From: an uncultured Bacteroidota bacterium
Lineage (GTDB): Bacteria; Bacteroidota; Bacteroidia; Chitinophagales; Chitinophagaceae
Assembly: GCA_903953815.1 (NCBI GenBank)
Contig: CAJBLA010000197.1
Location: forward strand, 1 to 44,983
DNA length: 44,983 nucleotides
Direction of reading: 5' to 3'
Below are positions 19,356 through 44,640 of the stretch, piece by piece. The notes under the pieces are model-generated. The model ran no database searches and was not told the origin of the DNA. It saw only the letters and a list, made by a program, of their open reading frames with translations. Made by a program: the position numbers and the translations under genes. Position 1 is the stretch's first letter. Every line of letters starts with the position of its first letter.

Positions 19356-19937
19356 ATGAACAAAACTGTACTCCTAAGCGACTATGAATTAATTGCGTCC
19401 TTTCAACAAGGAAATACCCGCGCCTTTGACACCTTAATTGACCGTTACCAAGAAAAAATTTATAACACCATTTTATTTATGGTGAAAGACAGTTATTTAG
19501 CGGAGGATTTGATTCAGGAAATTTTTATTAAAATTATCGACAACATCAAACAAAAAAAATACGCAGAAGAAGGTAAGTTTTTACCTTGGGCTTTGCGCAT
19601 TTCTCACAACTTTTGTATCGATCATTTTAGAAAAGTAAAGCGTACACCAACCATTAAAACAAGTGATGATCAGGATATATTTGAAGTGATTAAATTTTCA
19701 GACCACGCTGCAGATTATAAAATGACGCGTAGTCAAACACATAAAAATATTCAAGAATTGGTGGACTTACTTCCTGAAGAACAAAGAGAAATTATTGTTT
19801 TAAGACATTATGCCAATTTGAGCTTTAAGGAAATCGCGCAAATGACCAACTGCAGTATCAATACCGCTTTAGGAAGAATGCGTTACGGTTTGATCAACCT
19901 TAGAAAGATGATGAACGAACGTGGCATGAGCCTATAA
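19356..19937 (+). CDS. ECF sigma-70 factor (start moved to MNKTVL)
   Basis: AEDLIQE.FIK, F.PW..RI.HN.CID.FRK and region 4 LP.EQRE...LSFKEIA...INTALGRMRY. Confidence 0.93.
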   Translation: MNKTVLLSDYELIASFQQGNTRAFDTLIDRYQEKIYNTILFMVKDSYLAEDLIQEIFIKIIDNIKQKKYAEEGKFLPWALRISHNFCIDHFRKVKRTPTIKTSDDQDIFEVIKFSDHAADYKMTRSQTHKNIQELVDLLPEEQREIIVLRHYANLSFKEIAQMTNCSINTALGRMRYGLINLRKMMNERGMSL

Positions 19938-19976
19938 ATATATTGCTATCAAGAAAATATAATAGCAATATATTTA
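19935..19976. repeat. Perfect 15-bp inverted repeat with 12-nt loop at the sigma gene stop codon
   Basis: TAAATATATTGCTAT (19935-19949) / ATAGCAATATATTTA (19962-19976). Confidence 0.9.
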
Positions 19977-19993
19977 ATCCTCTTATGATTTTA

Positions 19994-20023
19994 TTAAAAA
20001 AGCGCCTATTGGCGCTTTTTTAA
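19994..20023. terminator. Bidirectional intrinsic terminator between the sigma gene and dsbD
   Basis: TTAAAAAAGCGCC-TATT-GGCGCTTTTTTAA. Confidence 0.9.
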
Positions 20024-20037
20024 ATTCTTTCCTTTAA

Positions 20038-21969
20038 TTACTTGCTCTTATTCGCGCTGCATTGCAACCAAGCTAAATACTCGCTAGCATTGGGCGTATA
20101 ACCCACTGGATTGGATAATAATTTTTCATTTGGACTCATTACTACATATAAAGGTTGTGTAACCTGACTAAAGTTTTCTGCTTGGAATGTAGCCCACAAA
20201 TCACCGACACTATTGATATCCTTGGCCTGTCCTGACTTGCTCGTATAAGTGAATCTTTTATCAATCGGCAACATGGCTTTATCATCCACATATAAGGAAA
20301 CCAAAATAAAATTATTTTGTATGTATGACATCACTGCAGGATCGGTCCAAACATTCTCCTCCATTTTACGGCAGTTCACACAAGCCCATCCGGTAAAGTC
20401 AATCAATATAGGTTTGTTTTGCTGTTTTGATAAAAGCACTGCTTGCGCATAATCATTCATCACATTGGCTTGTAATCCATGCTTACCCTTTTCATGCTGA
20501 AATAAACTATAGTGCATTGGAGGTGGAAATCCACTTAAAATATTAAGGTACTTTGCATTTTGAGGTGCAATACCCACCAATAAAAAGCCTGCAAAAACGA
20601 AAGCCCCAATTGCTAACACTTTTCTAGTCACTGCAATTTTTGCGCCCTTTACATCATGTGGTAATAATAAGATGCCTAATAAATAAAGTGCCAATCCTAT
20701 ACTTATCACCGCCCAAATTCCTAAAAACACTTCGCGTTTTAATAGTCCCCAATGTTCTACCAAATCCGCATTGGATAAAAATTTGAAAGCCAATGCTAAT
20801 TCTAAAAATGCCAATATCTTTTTTACGGTATCCAACCAACCACCTGATTTAGGTAAGCTTTGTAACCATTGTGGAAATATTGCGAATAAAGTAAAAGGTA
20901 ATGCTAATGCAACGCCAAACCCTGCCATACCTTGTGTCAAGGACCATGCTCCGCCTTGTAGTGAGCCCACTAATAAGGTGCCTAAAATAGGTCCCGTGCA
21001 GGAAAAAGATACAATAGCTAAAGTGATGGCCATAAAAAAGATGCCGCCAATACTTCCAAGTCCACTTTTTGAATCCGCTTTATTGGCAATACCACTAGGT
21101 AATGAAATTTCAAAAAATCCAAAAAATGAAATACTAAAAACGATGAATATAATAAAGAAGATAATATTCAACCATGGATTGGTTGAAATACTATTAAAAA
21201 TTTCAGGTTGCACATTTCCGACAATATGAAATGGTACGCTAGCTAAAACATACACCAAGAAAATACTTAATCCATATATTAATCCATTGACAATGCCTTG
21301 TTTTTTTGTTTTAGATCTTTTTGTAAAAAAAGAAACCGTCACAGGTATCATTGGAAATACACAAGGGGTAATAAGTGCAATTAAACCGCCTAAAAATCCA
21401 AGAAGGAATACTTCCCAACCACTAGAATTTGAGGTAGTAACAGCTGCGCTACCACAAGCATCATCGGGTGCATTGGTTGCTGTTGTGGGTAATAATATAT
21501 TAAAACCGGCTACTTTAGTTCCTTTGGATAACGCAACGGTCAAAGGTAGTTCCAATGCGTAAAACTGATCCGCCATGGCCACATTTAATACAACAATTAA
21601 TTTTATACTGTCAGGCTGAAACCCCGTAATCTGTAAGTTTTGATTCACCTCAAAATCACTTTTAAAAACCAAGGCCTGTGTAAACAAAACATCCGATTGC
21701 TTTATCGGTGCAATGGAATACTTTGGAGCTTGTAATAATTTGGCTGACTCGAGTTTACTTTTTATCAATGGCGCGTTAATTCCATCTGGATTTTCACCAT
21801 ACACGTGCCATCCCTTGTCAATTTGCAAATTTATTTTTAAGGCATAACTACTATCATTGATGAGTGTAGCTAAAGCTTTTGCGTGCACAACATTATCCGA
21901 TTGGGATTGAACACCCAAGGAAACCAACAAAAAGCCGATCGTTATAAAAAAAGAGGAAATTTTATGCAA
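20038..21969 (-). CDS. dsbD: Thiol:disulfide interchange protein DsbD family
   Basis: N-terminal GWHVY domain, TM domain with TPCVFPMIP and SCTGP, thioredoxin domain DFTGWACVNC. Confidence 0.92.
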   Translation of the reverse strand: MHKISSFFITIGFLLVSLGVQSQSDNVVHAKALATLINDSSYALKINLQIDKGWHVYGENPDGINAPLIKSKLESAKLLQAPKYSIAPIKQSDVLFTQALVFKSDFEVNQNLQITGFQPDSIKLIVVLNVAMADQFYALELPLTVALSKGTKVAGFNILLPTTATNAPDDACGSAAVTTSNSSGWEVFLLGFLGGLIALITPCVFPMIPVTVSFFTKRSKTKKQGIVNGLIYGLSIFLVYVLASVPFHIVGNVQPEIFNSISTNPWLNIIFFIIFIVFSISFFGFFEISLPSGIANKADSKSGLGSIGGIFFMAITLAIVSFSCTGPILGTLLVGSLQGGAWSLTQGMAGFGVALALPFTLFAIFPQWLQSLPKSGGWLDTVKKILAFLELALAFKFLSNADLVEHWGLLKREVFLGIWAVISIGLALYLLGILLLPHDVKGAKIAVTRKVLAIGAFVFAGFLLVGIAPQNAKYLNILSGFPPPMHYSLFQHEKGKHGLQANVMNDYAQAVLLSKQQNKPILIDFTGWACVNCRKMEENVWTDPAVMSYIQNNFILVSLYVDDKAMLPIDKRFTYTSKSGQAKDINSVGDLWATFQAENFSQVTQPLYVVMSPNEKLLSNPVGYTPNASEYLAWLQCSANKSK

Positions 21970-28948: not shown

Positions 28949-28980
28949 TTTCGAGCCCTTATATTTTATAAAGGGCGAAA
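28949..28980. repeat. Hairpin with ATATTTTATA loop just after the metG stop codon
   Basis: GCCCTT-ATATTTTATA-AAGGGC core with outer TTTCG/CGAAA pairing. Confidence 0.8.
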
Positions 28981-28986
28981 GGAAAA

Positions 28987-29030
28987 ATAATAATAAGGCC
29001 CCCCGATAAATCGGGGGGCCTTATTATTAT
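28987..29030. terminator. Bidirectional terminator between metG and the GMC operon
   Basis: Perfect 21-bp inverted repeat ATAATAATAAGGCCCCCCGAT / ATCGGGGGGCCTTATTATTAT. Confidence 0.9.
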
Positions 29031-29046
29031 AAAATCATTAGAGGAA

Positions 29047-29688
29047 TTAGTAACTTATACACTCTTTTAATTCTTTCTCTGTATAGGCTAATCCATGTTG
29101 CTTTAATACTTCATCAGGAACCCCATTCCATTGGTTGGGCACATTCCCCATATAGCCCAAATCCTTCACCCCAATTTCAGAAGTATAAAATCCTGTAGTG
29201 ACCAAGTCGCGAATTTTATTAAAAAAGCTAACGCCTTGCGCTACTTCTGGTTTCGCCTTATTTGGATAGGCAATTTCATCTACAATTTCTAATTGCTGCG
29301 GCTTTGTTAAATCAACAAACGCTTTTTCATGTTTCTTATAACAATGTAAATCCAACCATCTTAAGCCACCACGCATTGGCACTTGATGATCGGGCATATC
29401 CTTTACTATAAACTCAATAAATTCAGGCACTTTAGCGTCCGACGCTGAGCCACTTACTGCATCCTTAGGCATAATGATATCAGCTAGTACCGTAATGGTA
29501 GCCATTTCCTGTGCATCAAAAAAATCAGGCTGTGCTTTTATCTTAACTAAGTAATCCTTTTCTTCCTGCATACGATCGTCCAAGTTCACTTCTGAAACAG
29601 TCGTTTTCGTATTTTTACAAGCTTCAAGTAATACACCTGCGGAAACAGTGCCTAATACCAACGCTTTAATGGAATCTCTTCTATCCAT
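29047..29688 (-). CDS. Gluconate 2-dehydrogenase subunit 3 family protein, predicted Tat lipoprotein
   Basis: MDRRDSIK twin-Arg signal, LEAC lipobox, LADII.P..SA.DA.V..FI and GFYTSEIG..LGY motifs; follows the GMC gene. Confidence 0.9.
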   Translation of the reverse strand: MDRRDSIKALVLGTVSAGVLLEACKNTKTTVSEVNLDDRMQEEKDYLVKIKAQPDFFDAQEMATITVLADIIMPKDAVSGSASDAKVPEFIEFIVKDMPDHQVPMRGGLRWLDLHCYKKHEKAFVDLTKPQQLEIVDEIAYPNKAKPEVAQGVSFFNKIRDLVTTGFYTSEIGVKDLGYMGNVPNQWNGVPDEVLKQHGLAYTEKELKECISY

Positions 29689-31622: not shown

Positions 31623-31650
31623 AATCCCCACCCGTTAATGGGTGGGGATT
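31623..31650 (-). terminator. Intrinsic terminator of nrdJ
   Basis: AATCCCCACCC / GGGTGGGGATT stem with T tail on the minus strand. Confidence 0.88.
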
Positions 31651-31667
31651 AAAATCATTAGAGGATA

Positions 31668-31705
31668 TTTTTGGAAATTTTATATTTTATAAAAATTTCC
31701 AAAAA
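31668..31705. repeat. Perfect 14-bp inverted repeat with 10-nt loop at the nrdJ stop codon
   Basis: TTTTTGGAAATTTT-ATATTTTATA-AAAATTTCCAAAAA. Confidence 0.9.
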
Positions 31706-31706
31706 A

Positions 31707-34700
31707 TCAACTGCAGCCCATACTTGTTCCACAGTTCAAGCATTTATAGCAAGTACCGCTTCTGATTGTAATATGTCCACATGTGCTACAAGCTGGCGCA
31801 TCGCTTTGCATGCTCTTCGCAGCTGCTTGTACTTGGTCCATGGATCCACCAGCAGTTGTTTCAACGGCTACCGCTACATTCGCTTTTGCGACTGTTGGCG
31901 CAGTAACACGAATGCTACTTAGCTCAGGCTTTCCCACTAATGTAATATCGCCCTCCTCTCCTAAATTTTCAACTGTCGGCTTGTCTAGTACATGTACTAA
32001 ATCAGTTCTACCTAAATATTCATATGCCAATGAGCGGAAAATAAAGTCAACAATCGAAGTGGTTGTTTTGATATTTGGATGATCCACCATTCCTGAAGGT
32101 TCAAACTTGGTAAATACAAATTTCTCGACAAACTCTTCTAATGGAACACCATATTGTAATCCCACTGAAATTGAAATCGCAAAACAGTTCATTAAACTGC
32201 GAAGTGTTGAACCTTCTTTTGCTAAATCAATAAATATTTCTCCTAAAGTATTGTCATTGTATTCGCCTGTTCTTAAGAATAATACCTGTCCACCAATACG
32301 CGCTTTTTGTGTAAAGCCACGACGCTTAGCCGGTAATGATTTACGCTCAACGATTCTAGAAAGTTGACGCTTAAATTTAGTATCCGTTGAAGCAGACATT
32401 CTTTTTTGAACTTCTTCTAGCAACTCATCTACATTTAATTTACTTAGGTCAACCAACTGAGAACCGCCATCTGCTGCTACTTCTTCTTCAGTTGCCGCAT
32501 CAACTTTTTTCTTTTTATCTGATTTTGTACTTAATGGCTGGCTTAATTTAGAACCATCACGATATATTGCGTTCGCTTTTAATCCTAGAGACCAACTCAT
32601 TAAATAAGAATCAGCAATTTCTTCAACAGTCGCTTCGTTTGGAAGATTAATGGTTTTAGAAATCGCACCCGATAAGAAAGGTTGACAAGCTGCCATCATT
32701 CTAATATGACCATGCGCGTGAATGTATCTTTCTCCTTTTTTACCATTTTTATTCGCACAATCAAATATAGACAAATGCTCATCCTTCAATGCTGGCGCAC
32801 CTTCTACAGTCATTGTACCACAAACATAATCGTTAGCAGCATCAATTTGATCTTCTGTAAATCCTAAAGCTTCTAATAAACTAAAGCTCCAATCAGCAAA
32901 AACTTCTTCCTTAAAACCTAATCTTGTTAAACAAGCATCACCCAATGTGAAACGGTTAAAGATGAATCCAATTTCAAATGCTGATTTAGCAGCACCATTT
33001 AATTTTGCAATTTCTTCTGCAGTAAATCCTTTCGCTAATAATGATTCATTGTTAATGAATGGTGCACCTGCGAAACTTGCATGTCCTACAGCGAAATTTA
33101 CAATTGCATCATTTTCAGCTTGTGTATATCCTAAGTTCTTTAATGCTTGTGGTACCGATTGGTTGATAATTTTAAAGTATCCACCGCCTGATAATTTTTT
33201 GAATTTCACTAAAGCGAAATCTGGTTCAACACCTGTAGTATCGCAATCCATTACTAAACCAATCGTTCCTGTTGGAGCGATTACAGTTGTTTGCGCATTT
33301 CTATAGCCATATTTTTCACCTAATTGAACTGCATCATCCCAAGCCTTCGTTGCAGCTTTCAATAAATAATCAGGGGTATGTTGTGCTTTAATTCCTTGTG
33401 GTTTAATTTCAAGACCTACATAAGCACCTTCTGCATCATAGGCAGCAGCGCGGTGATTACGCATTACACGTAACATATCTTCTTTATTTTCTTCGTATCT
33501 ATCAAAAGCACCTAAGAAAGAAGCTAATTCAGCAGATGTTTTATAAGCCACACCCGTCATGATTGCCGTGATTGATCCTGCAATACCACGTGCTTCTTCG
33601 CTATCGTATGCAATACCGCTTACCATTAACATAGAACCAAGGTTGGCAAAACCTAAACCTGTAGTTCTGTAATCATATGATAATTGCGCTACTTCTTTAG
33701 AAGGGAACTGCGCCATTAAAATAGATACTTCTAATACAGTGGCCCATAATCTTGTCGTATACTCAAAACCAGTTACATCAAAACTATTGTCAGACTCGTT
33801 GAAGAATTTACGCAAGTTGATAGAAGCTAGGTTACAAGCCGTGTTGTCCAAGAACATATATTCTGAACATGGGTTAGAAGCATTAATTCTTCCCCCTTTT
33901 GGACAAGTATGCCACTCATTAATAGTAGTGTCATATTGCGTTCCTGGATCCGCACAACGCCAAGCAGCGTTTGCAATTTGATCCCATACTTCACGTGCAG
34001 GTATTGATTGCATCACACGACCATCAGTACGTGCTTTTAATTCCCAATTGCCATTTTCAGACAAAGCTTTAAAGAAGCTGTTCGGAATACGCACCGAGTT
34101 GTTTGAGTTTTGCCCAGACACTGTTGCGTATGCTTCTCCTTCATAACTATTATCATAACCAGCCGCGATTAAAGCAGCCACTTTATCTTCTTCTTTTACT
34201 TTCCAGTTAATGAATTCCATTACTTCTGGATGATCCAAATCCAAACAAACCATTTTAGCAGCACGACGTGTGGTACCACCTGACTTAATCGCACCTGCCG
34301 CGCGATCACCAATTTTCAAGAAGCTCATTAAGCCACTTGATGATCCGCCACCAGATAATTTCTCGTTAGCCCCTCTGATTTGAGAGAAGTTGGTTCCAAC
34401 CCCAGATCCGTATTTGAAAATTCTTGCTTCTCTTGTCCATAAATCCATAATGCCACCTTCGTTCACTAAATCATCGCTTACGCTTAATATAAAACAAGCA
34501 TGTGGTTGTGGACGCTCATATGCACTCGTTGATCTCTTTAATTTTTTATCAGTTGGATCAACATAATAGTGCCCTTGCGCACCACCTGTGATACCATAGC
34601 TTTCATGTAACCCTGTATTAAACCATTGTGGTGAATTTGGAACACAAGCTTGGTTTAAAATACTATATACTAACTCCTCATAAAATATTTGTGCATCTTG

Positions 34701-35036
34701 TTCAGTTGCAAAATAACCATAACGCTCACCCCACACTCTCCAGCAATTCGCCATACGATGTGCAACTTGCTTTACTGTTGTTTCACGACCTAAGGAACCA
34801 TCTGCTTGAGGTACGCCCGCTTTTCTAAAATATTTTTGTGCAAGAATATCTGTTGCAATTTGACTCCACTGTTTCGGCACTTCCACATTGGTCATCTCAA
34901 ATACTTTTTCTCCGTTTGGATTTTTAATTACGCTATCACGATAGTCGTAATCAAATTGATCAAATGGAGAAACATTTTCTTTTGTAAAGAGGCGTGTAAA
35001 TTTTAAGCCTTTTTTTGTTTTAGGAGTAGTAGCCAT
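31707..35036 (-). CDS. nrdJ: Adenosylcobalamin-dependent (class II) ribonucleotide reductase
   Basis: [45 protein letters not shown] and YRDG motifs, C-terminal Cys-rich tail; no intein seen. Confidence 0.96.
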
Positions 35037-43642: not shown

Positions 43643-44482
43643 ATGGCAACTACCGATTTAACAAAAATTGCATCTCAAATTAGAAGAGATATCGTAAGAA
43701 TGGTTCATGCACAACAAAGCGGCCACCCAGGTGGTTCTTTAGGTTGTACTGATTTTTTAACTGCCTTGTATTTTAAGGTGTTGAAACATGATAGTAGTTT
43801 TTCAATGGATGGGAAAGGAGAGGATCTTTTCTTTTTATCCAATGGTCATATTTCACCCGTTTTTTATTCTGTACTTGCAAGATCTGGTTATTTTGATGTA
43901 AAAGAATTAGCTACTTTCAGAAAAATAAATTCTCGTTTACAAGGTCATCCAACTACGCATGAGCATTTACCAGGTATTCGTATTGCGAGTGGATCTTTAG
44001 GACAAGGCATGAGTGTTGCCATTGGTGCAGCATTATCTAAAAAATATAACAATGATAATCGCACTGTTTATTGTTTACATGGCGATGGCGAATTACAAGA
44101 AGGACAAATTTGGGAATCGATCATGTTTGCTGCGCATAATAAAGTAGATAATTTAATTGCAACTGTAGATGTGAATGGCCAACAAATTGATGGCCCATTA
44201 AGTAAAGTATTATCACTAGATAGTTTAGAAGATAAATTCAAAGCATTTAATTGGACCGTATTACATATGGACGGTCATAATATGGAAGAAATTGTTGCCA
44301 CTTTAGATAAAGCGAAAGCTTTAACTGGACAAGGCAAGCCAATTTGCATATTAATGAAAACTGAAATGGGTAAGGGTGTTGACTTTATGGAAGGCAGCCA
44401 TGAATGGCATGGTATTGCGCCTAACGATGAGCAACTTGCAAAAGCATTAGGTCAATTAGAAGAAACCTTGGGCGATTATTGA
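43643..44482 (+). CDS. Transketolase N-terminal (TPP-binding) subunit (start moved to MATTDL)
   Basis: SGHPGGSLG, LSNGH, LQGHP, GSLGQG and GDGELQEG motifs; -7 element TATCTTTG at 43614-43621. Confidence 0.94.
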   Translation: MATTDLTKIASQIRRDIVRMVHAQQSGHPGGSLGCTDFLTALYFKVLKHDSSFSMDGKGEDLFFLSNGHISPVFYSVLARSGYFDVKELATFRKINSRLQGHPTTHEHLPGIRIASGSLGQGMSVAIGAALSKKYNNDNRTVYCLHGDGELQEGQIWESIMFAAHNKVDNLIATVDVNGQQIDGPLSKVLSLDSLEDKFKAFNWTVLHMDGHNMEEIVATLDKAKALTGQGKPICILMKTEMGKGVDFMEGSHEWHGIAPNDEQLAKALGQLEETLGDY

Positions 44483-44493
44483 TTTTATTGGGA

Positions 44494-44640
44494 GATTTTT
44501 ATAAAATATAAAATCGCTATTAAATCCTCTTTTATATTCTTTTTACTTCCTACCATCACTATATCTCATTAATGAGATATAGTGTCAGTTGTAAGCGATT
44601 TTTATAAAATATAAAATTGCTATTAAATCCTTTTTTATAT
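44494..44640. repeat. 44-bp direct repeat pair (44494-44537 and 44597-44640; 42/44 identical) flanking a perfect 28-bp palindrome (44557-44584)
   Basis: GATTTTTATAAAATATAAAATYGCTATTAAATCCTYTTTTATAT twice; CACTATATCTCATTAATGAGATATAGTG between them. Confidence 0.92.

What the first reader, a model, noticed from the sequence alone, without database searches (positions are those of the whole stretch)
19935..20023. Shared 3'-end architecture: stop codon, loop-motif hairpin, TCCTCT box, terminator
Seen: after the ECF sigma gene come a 15-bp hairpin (loop contains AAGAAAATAT), TCCTCTTATGATTTTA (19978-19993) and a terminator. After nrdJ (minus strand, 31623-31705) come a 14-bp hairpin (loop TATAAAATAT), TCCTCTAATGATTTTA and a terminator. 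After transketolase come a hairpin with the same loop and then TCCTCT (44525). Stems and terminators differ in sequence while loop, box and order are kept, which points to selection on structure rather than recent duplication. Inferred: a 3'-UTR regulatory module, such as an RNA-binding-protein or RNase site or a family of 3'-derived sRNAs. I know of no named element like it. This is the best candidate for a new system here.
Basis: partly seen in the sequence, partly recalled or inferred. Interest (0 to 1): 0.75.

Follow-up and report, generated by a model that had tools for sequence, protein, structure and literature searches.

The report
Hairpin repeat that copies gene ends
One lineage of freshwater bacteria carries mostly 8-20 copies per genome of a short repeat just after stop codons, whose stem is an inverted copy of the neighbouring host DNA, often the gene's own last codons, and which likely works as a DNA hairpin on the template strand rather than as the mRNA signal first proposed.

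Summary
The feature is real and larger than reported. The unit is host sequence X, a 10-nt loop, an inverted copy X' (14-20 bp stem), the box CTCTWATGATTTT 17-21 nt after the loop, then hairpin B, usually a sense terminator. A covariance model finds 13 copies in this genome and 1-26 in 42 of 67 same-genus genomes (likely Sediminibacterium), 0 of 13 in other genera. It follows about 40 unrelated housekeeping genes, often in tandem, and is often lost.

The stem is re-copied locally: X' matches each lineage's own gene end (15.3/18 vs 10.0/18 at lysS). Loop, spacing and box persist where synonymous sites are saturated. Stem mismatches are A-C 27 vs G-T 6 on the mRNA strand; ordinary terminators show 15 vs 54. 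So the stem pairs better on the template strand, as attC does, and a sense-RNA structure is disfavoured.

No Rfam family or mobilising enzyme was found, and the RNA data were uninformative. This scan noted similar gene-end-copying hairpins in other bacteria (unchecked notes).

Verdict: a new variant of REP/BIME-type mosaic repeats. The mechanism is inferred.

The parts
19935..19949 (+). Copy 1, arm X (begins at the stop codon of the ECF sigma gene 19356-19937)
19950..19961 (+). Copy 1, conserved loop (core RAAATNTA)
19962..19976 (+). Copy 1, arm X' (perfect inverted copy of X)
19980..19992 (+). Copy 1, box CTCTWATGATTTT
19994..20023 (+). Copy 1, hairpin B (terminator-like; convergent dsbD-like gene ends at 20038)
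31668..31705 (-). Copy 2, hairpin A (14-bp stem, 10-nt loop) after nrdJ (31707-35036, -)
   Evidence: model E=1e-8 (near-identical orthologues were in the training set)
31651..31663 (-). Copy 2, box
31623..31650 (-). Copy 2, hairpin B of the CCATAAACG type, intergenic only next to a box in this genome
28987..29043 (-). Partial copy: box (29031-29043) plus CCCGA-N4-TCGGG hairpin B after gene 29047-29688; hairpin A deleted
28955..28976 (-). Box-less hairpin A remnant with the consensus loop, next to the metG stop (28947)
44481..44533 (+). Copy 3, decayed unit after the transketolase N-terminal gene (43643-44482)
   Evidence: E=0.07
44557..44584 (.). Perfect 28-bp palindrome between copies 3 and 4, in the position of hairpin B
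44595..44639 (+). Copy 4, decayed direct repeat of copy 3, reaching the stop of the convergent lolE-like gene
   Evidence: E=0.46

Best explanation
It is a lineage-specific interspersed repeat at gene 3' ends whose 14-20-bp stem is an inverted copy of the adjacent host DNA, likely re-written by replication template switching, and whose conserved loop, 17-21-nt spacing and 13-nt box likely form a protein-recognition site on a DNA hairpin of the template (antisense) strand. Shown: the anatomy, clade restriction, tandem arrays and losses, tracking of the local gene end, conservation of loop, spacing and box across saturated synonymous divergence, and the strand asymmetry of mismatches. Inferred: (1) X' is re-templated from X in single events that stop at the box because the box is under selection; (2) a protein reads loop and box on the folded template strand, as integrases read attC and RAYTs read REPs; (3) that activity, or plain recombination between the X...X and B...B repeats, duplicates, deletes, inverts and occasionally moves units; (4) hairpin B gives the host a ready-made terminator, which would explain why most surviving copies face the upstream gene. 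The protein is not identified.
For: Tracking: at the M19 dipeptidase locus (11 carriers of 27) X' matches its own gene end at 15.4/18 vs 12.4/18 for other orthologues; at lysS (9 of 26) 15.3 vs 10.0 (kin are not independent). 28 of 130 units hold 6 or more coding nt, stop included, in the stem. Geometry: loop to box 17-21 nt in 125 of 130 units (search window 15-23), and the stem ends 0-5 nt from the box in 124 of 130. 100 of 172 distinct stems are perfect. Selection on the box: fourfold sites are mostly 0.3-0.5 identical (range 0.26-0.71) between orthologues that both keep it. Strand: A-C 27 vs G-T 6 (p=3e-4; isolated mismatches 24 vs 6); 15 host loci lean A-C and 2 lean G-T. Co-directional terminators of the same genome give 15 vs 54, and sense-strand substitution rates predict 52% A-C (p=7e-4). 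The antisense strand folds better in 80 vs 31 of 127 units with DNA parameters. G:T excess on the active strand is described for attC (PMC5027507, passages). DNA dynamics: arrays of 1-4 units; X repeated after B in 18 of 122 units vs 2.2 expected; old gene ends kept in distal units; the same X at sucC and metK 9.5 kb apart with synteny intact; antisense units at three loci. Template switching perfects inverted repeats in bacteria (PMC5941160, PMC6357072, passages). SbcD_C and ExoVII-L were found in 0 of 46 genomes of the genus.
Against: No mobiliser was found. Y1/RAYT occurs in 66 of 201 genus genomes but none of the 43 pattern carriers. IS110, reverse transcriptase and Nop were in 0 of 5 carriers each, TnpB weakly in 1 of 5, and a small GIY-YIG in 3 of 66, always at tRNAs and away from the box. 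No mobile gene flanks any unit in the visible output for 94 metagenome loci (middle of the table cut, list of unmatched neighbours seen whole). Orientation follows the gene, not the replichore (both orientations lie within this window), which is what an RNA element would show. Empty sites look like deletions of an old unit, not pre-insertion sites, so no new insertion is shown. The mismatch asymmetry could also mean that G-T is removed from the sense strand rather than tolerated on the antisense strand. Mismatch events are de-duplicated by context but share ancestry. RNA parameters give the same strand preference as DNA parameters (83 vs 42). No clear within-genome homogenisation of the box W position (p=0.057). 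The SbcD and ExoVII absence is genus-wide, so it does not separate carriers from non-carriers.
Confidence: 0.5

Rival explanations
1. Sense-strand 3'-UTR RNA module: the box, and perhaps the loop, is bound by an RNA-binding protein or cut by an RNase, or box plus terminator is released as a FopS-like family of paralogous small RNAs; the stem is a by-product or a loose processing site.
For: 284 of 292 units lie behind a same-strand stop, 217 of them with the box 23-53 nt after it. B has a sense U-tract in 77 of 99 vs 35 of 99 antisense. The copy number resembles FopS (12-15 per genome, single-stranded seed plus terminator; PMC11697453 section 8). An RRM protein is present in 3 of 3 carriers tested.
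Against: G-U is depleted, not enriched, in stem A. Antisense units occur at three loci. Host genes share no evident pathway. Units are often lost or tandemly multiplied between close relatives. The box is not enriched at start codons (1.09% vs 1.05% at internal ATG). The RRM protein is also in a non-carrier.
Confidence: 0.2
2. A self-guided homing mini-element: loop, X' and box form a single-stranded donor whose 18-20-nt X' arm acts as a guide pairing with the target gene end, so a trans-acting enzyme inserts it at empty alleles; guides that no longer match are lost.
For: Ruler-like 18-20-nt arm ending at the box, match to the resident gene end, wobble tolerated on one strand only, and X repeated after B like a target duplication.
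Against: No enzyme found. Empty sites look like deletions. No copy in viral contigs: 6 pattern hits, none with the hairpin. Template switching explains X' without a guide.
Confidence: 0.12
3. A neutral relic of an old mobile repeat: template switching keeps the stem perfect and gene conversion keeps loop and box alike; only terminator B matters.
For: Frequent loss and decayed copies; 72 of 172 stems carry mismatches; no partner gene.
Against: The box is intact at the same locus across saturated synonymous divergence. The spacing is fixed. Mismatches are strand-biased. There is no significant homogenisation of the box W position.
Confidence: 0.1
4. The template-strand motifs are a promoter (box and loop 18 nt apart) or part of an antisense RNA running into the 3' end of the host gene.
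For: Two conserved motifs at promoter-like spacing; the antisense loop reads TAnATTTY; the strand bias fits an antisense RNA as well as DNA.
Against: The genome's promoter element is enriched only with G or A at the last position, and the element has G there in 0 of 86 loops. The convergent gene's transcript would mostly stop at B. The bias also holds where no convergent gene exists (10 vs 3).
Confidence: 0.08

Closest known systems
REP/BIME mosaics and CGTC-1 (dRS3-type) repeats (PMC2817692 abstract; PMC3733652 passages)
   Same: Short palindromic units in alternating tandem mosaics, downstream of genes, often touching stop codons, lineage-specific. One class of hairpin B (CCCGA-N4-TCGGG, 28 copies in this genome) resembles CGTC-type REPs, which also lack a dedicated transposase.
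   Different: REP stems are the conserved part; here the stem is locus-specific and copied from the host, while loop, spacing and box are conserved. No GTAG/CGTC tag on hairpin A, no RAYT in carriers, and 8-20 copies rather than over 100.
Integron attC sites (PMC5027507, passages)
   Same: Sequence-variable hairpins at gene 3' ends whose antisense ('bottom') strand folds better, through G:T pairs.
   Different: No RYYYAAC/GTTRRRY ends and no regular extrahelical bases. Host genes are core genes, not cassettes. Only two tyrosine recombinases (XerC/D-like by score) are shared by the carriers tested.
FopS paralogous sRNAs of Bacteroides (PMC11697453, passages and section 8)
   Same: Same phylum, 12-15 copies per genome, conserved single-stranded motif before a terminator.
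   Different: FopS are mostly intergenic genes with their own promoters (1 of 14 from a 3' UTR) and have no host-copied stem. No Rfam match at gathering score in the window; the best Bacteroides sRNA hit in 8 array loci was 27 bits vs a cut-off of 80.
Pneumococcal BOX and SPRITE repeats (PMC3184786, passages)
   Same: Modular tandem intergenic repeats; a terminator-like element biased to 3' ends of convergent genes.
   Different: Those have fixed sequences; the passages read describe no inverted copy of the flanking gene.
TIGR arrays (PMC12045711, passages)
   Same: Two alternating short repeats separated by variable spacers.
   Different: Spacers here are 18-20 nt, complementary to each other and taken from the adjacent gene. 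Arrays are 1-4 units and dispersed. No Nop-domain gene in 5 carriers.

Membership tests
REP/BIME (RAYT-mobilised) | Conserved stem sequence with a GTAG or CGTC tag | tested here: not met
   Stem A differs at each of 42 host-gene clusters and copies the flank
REP/BIME (RAYT-mobilised) | Cognate RAYT (Y1) gene flanked by the repeat, correlated with its abundance | tested here: not met
   None of the 66 genomes with PF01797 is among the 43 carriers; 12 Y1 loci show no exact B-type repeat
REP/BIME (RAYT-mobilised) | Extragenic tandem mosaics of alternating hairpins downstream of genes | tested here: met
Integron attC | Bottom strand folds more stably, with G:T excess | tested here: met
Integron attC | RYYYAAC ... 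GTTRRRY ends and extrahelical bases | tested here: not met
   Stem ends are variable in alignment A1
Integron attC | Arrays of mobile cassettes and an IntI integrase | tested here: not met
   Neighbours are housekeeping genes; two carriers hold only two tyrosine recombinases; IntI itself was not searched by a dedicated model
FopS sRNA family | Match to the Rfam-deposited family | tested here: not met
FopS sRNA family | Discrete transcribed small RNA bound by an RRM protein | not testable with these tools
   Only assembled RNA contigs were available; none covered the unit
MITE | Fixed terminal inverted repeats shared between copies | tested here: not met
MITE | Target-site duplication against an empty site | tested here: inconclusive
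   X repeated after B in 18 of 122 units, but empty alleles look like deletions
TIGR-Tas / IS110 guide arrays | Nop-domain Tas or IS110 transposase in the genome | tested here: not met
   0 of 5 carriers each
TIGR-Tas / IS110 guide arrays | 8-12-nt spacers flanked by box C/D motifs | tested here: not met
   Spacers are 18-20 nt and self-complementary
dif/pdif (XerCD) site | 11-6-11 arrangement matching the genome's dif arms | tested here: not met
   A dif candidate on contig C134 shares only five bases with the T form of the box

The most novel reading that the evidence does not exclude
A natural nucleic-acid-guided insertion system reduced to about 45 bases: the element carries an 18-20-nt guide copied from the end of the gene it sits behind, an unknown host or passing enzyme reads loop and box on single-stranded DNA, and the guide is re-written whenever the gene end changes, so the element homes to empty alleles of core genes.
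Probability: 0.15. Interest if true: 0.9.

Novelty: new variant of a known kind. Interest (0 to 1): 0.62.

Why it matters
Known small bacterial repeats are inherited as sequence. This one keeps a fixed frame (loop, ruler, box) and refills its stem from the host, including protein-coding ends, again and again across a clade. That gives a natural, many-times-replicated record of template switching with a known donor arm and a fixed boundary, and the process can be read in population data. It points to an unidentified structure-specific, strand-selective activity in an abundant streamlined freshwater lineage. It also shows that covariation in a 3' hairpin need not mean RNA selection; the G-T versus A-C test used here separates the two. 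If the guide reading holds, it would be a minimal programmable insertion system.

Tried and rejected
Rfam: only a tRNA at gathering score in the window. In 8 array loci, generic hairpin-terminator hits only, one GcvB hit at 42.9 bits vs a cut-off of 42, taken as spurious.

RNA evidence: 24 metatranscriptome runs, all contigs. Two lays could not show ends or strand, and no contig covered the nrdJ unit, so they are not used as evidence.

Cargo or island hypothesis: the 9.5 kb between two like units is syntenic with this genome. Extra genes after some units show no flanking pair of units in the 1.5 kb read.

Mobilisers: RAYT, IS110, RT, Nop, TnpB, small GIY-YIG and extra integrases were absent or unlinked.

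Other rejected readings: dif-like site, antisense housekeeping promoter, start-codon mimic or anti-AUG seed. The anti-Shine-Dalgarno idea could not be tested because no 16S end was found in the assembly. Concerted evolution of the box was not significant.

Outside the clade: 4 of 300 other family genomes have single box+B pattern hits (control 1; not followed up beyond the match text). Six viral hits have no hairpin. Non-Chitinophagaceae hits of the all-genome scan lack the long stem or hairpin B; 10-11 such loci, the Y1, viral and family loci and, two rplT loci with a broken frame were left out of the counts.

The covariation score (87.9% paired vs 51.7% shuffled) is circular, because rows were chosen for pairing.

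Literature: ten searches found no description of this element. The library lacks most subscription papers, and no supplements were read.

Full report
Setting. The window is contig C197 of a 2.62-Mb, 35% GC genome. Public records carrying the same pattern are titled Sediminibacterium or Chitinophagaceae freshwater MAGs, so the genus is most likely Sediminibacterium. The host genes in the window are an ECF sigma factor, nrdJ and a transketolase N-terminal gene.

Observation. Copies 1 and 2 are as described and fold far better than shuffles (z -7.8 and -6.1). Copy 3 is decayed (z -0.3). The window also holds a decayed direct repeat of copy 3 around a 28-bp palindrome, a box plus terminator without the first hairpin, and a first hairpin without a box. 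The box is intergenic in 11 of 14 genome hits and peaks 40-59 nt after stops (8 of 15 hits; reversed control 0 of 7). A covariance model built from 17 units finds 13 copies at E<0.01 in this genome, plus copies 3 and 4 weakly.

Distribution. The loop+box pattern occurs in 43 of 201 genus genomes, the reversed control in none. The model hits 42 of 80 chosen genomes: 42 of 67 in the genus and 0 of 13 outside it, with 1-26 copies, 8-20 in 33 of the 42. Carriers are small genomes (1.2-2.6 Mb). Other family genomes give only isolated pattern hits (4 of 300, control 1), and viral hits have no hairpin. In metagenomes, 94 of 119 pattern hits have the hairpin; five more with a mismatched stem are visibly the same element. 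Across all loci held, 292 units fall behind 42 clusters of upstream genes. These include rplT, rplY, efp, tsf, typA, lysS, rho, sucC, icd, aconitase, aceF, thiolase, nrdJ, bcp, nfu and peptidases. 284 units face the upstream gene. Eight, at metK, glgP/ubiX and sucD, are antisense.

Anatomy. Read along the mRNA: X, loop (core RAAATNTA), X', box CTCTWATGATTTT, hairpin B. The loop-to-box distance is 17-21 nt in 125 of 130 units, and the stem reaches to within 5 nt of the box in 124. B starts 1-3 nt after the box. It is absent or weak in 20 of 146 units and has a sense U-tract in 77 of 99 distinct forms, an antisense one in 35. One B class is a CCCGA-N4-TCGGG hairpin that has 28 copies in this genome, mostly without a box. 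The other class (CCATAAACG loop) is intergenic only after a box here. Arrays of up to four units with like or unlike stems are common. Convergent genes can each carry their own unit (L338, L092).

The stem is copied from the host. In 28 of 130 units the 5' arm includes six or more coding bases. I fetched 27 lysS and 30 dipeptidase orthologues. X' is the reverse complement of each lineage's own gene end, through synonymous and C-terminal changes, perfect in some and lagging by one to three bases in others. Self-match exceeds match to other orthologues: 15.4 vs 12.4 of 18 (11 carriers of 27 scored) and 15.3 vs 10.0 (9 of 26 scored) (three and one loci with divergent or broken ends were left out). 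Distal units preserve older gene ends (L249, L289, L291). X recurs after B in 18 of 122 units against 2.2 expected. Many orthologues lack the unit, and several keep a remnant of X or a box-less hairpin, so these empty sites are losses. Template switching is the known process that perfects inverted repeats in one step (PMC5941160 and PMC6357072, passages). It is linked to high transcription in yeast (PMC3820800, abstract) and is raised by trapped topoisomerases (PMC7202029, passages). No SbcD_C or ExoVII large-subunit match was found in 46 genomes of the genus, carriers or not. That these nucleases limit palindromes and template switching is recalled, not read.

The frame is selected. Orthologues that both keep an intact box are mostly 30-50% identical at fourfold sites. 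The W position varies among genomes only marginally (p=0.057), so homogenisation does not clearly explain the conservation.

The stem favours the template strand. An RNA helix under selection accumulates G-U over A-C, and 102 hairpins between co-directional genes of this genome do (54 vs 15). Stem A does the opposite on the mRNA strand: A-C 32 vs G-T 6 and 15 vs 2 host loci, and 27 vs 6 in a stricter pooled set of 172 stems, 100 of them perfect. A crude neutral expectation from fourfold sites is 52% A-C. Folding energies favour the antisense strand with DNA (80 vs 31) and RNA (83 vs 42) parameters in 127 units. B shows no such bias (10 vs 6). The same signature marks attC bottom strands (PMC5027507, passages). 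Limits: events share ancestry, and the data cannot tell tolerance on the antisense strand from removal on the sense strand, nor DNA from antisense RNA.

Against my reading. Orientation follows the gene, and B is a sense terminator, so loop and box are probably transcribed. A FopS-like role of box plus terminator remains open (PMC11697453, passages and section 8), and an RRM protein is present. No mobilising enzyme was found among RAYT, IS110, RT, Nop, TnpB, small GIY-YIG or extra integrases. No new insertion is documented. RNA contigs were uninformative. Promoter, start-codon and dif readings failed their tests.

Comparison and novelty. It behaves like REP/BIME, BOX and SPRITE mosaics (PMC2817692 abstract; PMC3733652 and PMC3184786 passages) and shares attC's strand logic, but it fails the defining tests of each, and of TIGR arrays (PMC12045711 passages). 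Rfam has no convincing match. Ten paper searches found no description. This scan has no note on this genome. Unchecked notes describe hairpin repeats extended by inverted copies of gene or tRNA ends in small-genome bacteria, so the copying behaviour may recur in other lineages; I did not test those notes.

Verdict. Real, undescribed in what I could search, and a new variant of intergenic mosaic repeats. The best reading (0.5) is a template-strand DNA hairpin site with a host-templated stem; sense-RNA module 0.2, guided homing 0.12, neutral relic 0.1, antisense promoter or RNA 0.08. Interest 0.62.

Noticed in passing
L306:1400-1900; L462:1400-1850: An 85-aa GIY-YIG gene flanked by duplicated 5' halves of a tRNA gene, each carrying a CCCGA-N4-TCGGG hairpin; looks like a tiny mobile nuclease element that uses the same hairpin class as B but no box.
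   Followed up: partly
L463:1-560: Tandem tRNA 5' fragments with CCCGA-type hairpins in front of an intact tRNA gene and a GIY-YIG gene.
   Followed up: no
G000, 28 intergenic sites (one at window 28987-29030): A family of CCCGA-N4-TCGGG terminator-like hairpins with variable, mostly perfect outer stems, resembling CGTC-type REPs.
   Followed up: partly
46 genomes of the genus: No match to SbcD_C or the ExoVII large subunit, although Bacteroides thetaiotaomicron has both.
   Followed up: no
G000 contig C134: Candidate dif site with an 11-6-11 layout.
   Followed up: no
L302 after the dipeptidase stop; also L289, L249: Three near-exact tandem units of about 100 nt with an extra GC-rich hairpin before B; possibly a longer ancestral form of the element.
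   Followed up: no
L288, first 70 nt after the dipeptidase stop: The ATG inside a degenerate box opens the reading frame of the downstream lipoprotein gene.
   Followed up: no
L085:1680-2280 (G000 contig C280): A broken gene after sucC that is intact in L061.
   Followed up: no
window 28978-29047: An RNA contig of run X3 skips the box and terminator, so a co-occurring strain may carry an empty allele (one contig, low depth).
   Followed up: no
L249-L275: The last four to six residues of LysS are highly variable among close relatives, next to the element; back-copying from X' into the gene is possible but untested.
   Followed up: no
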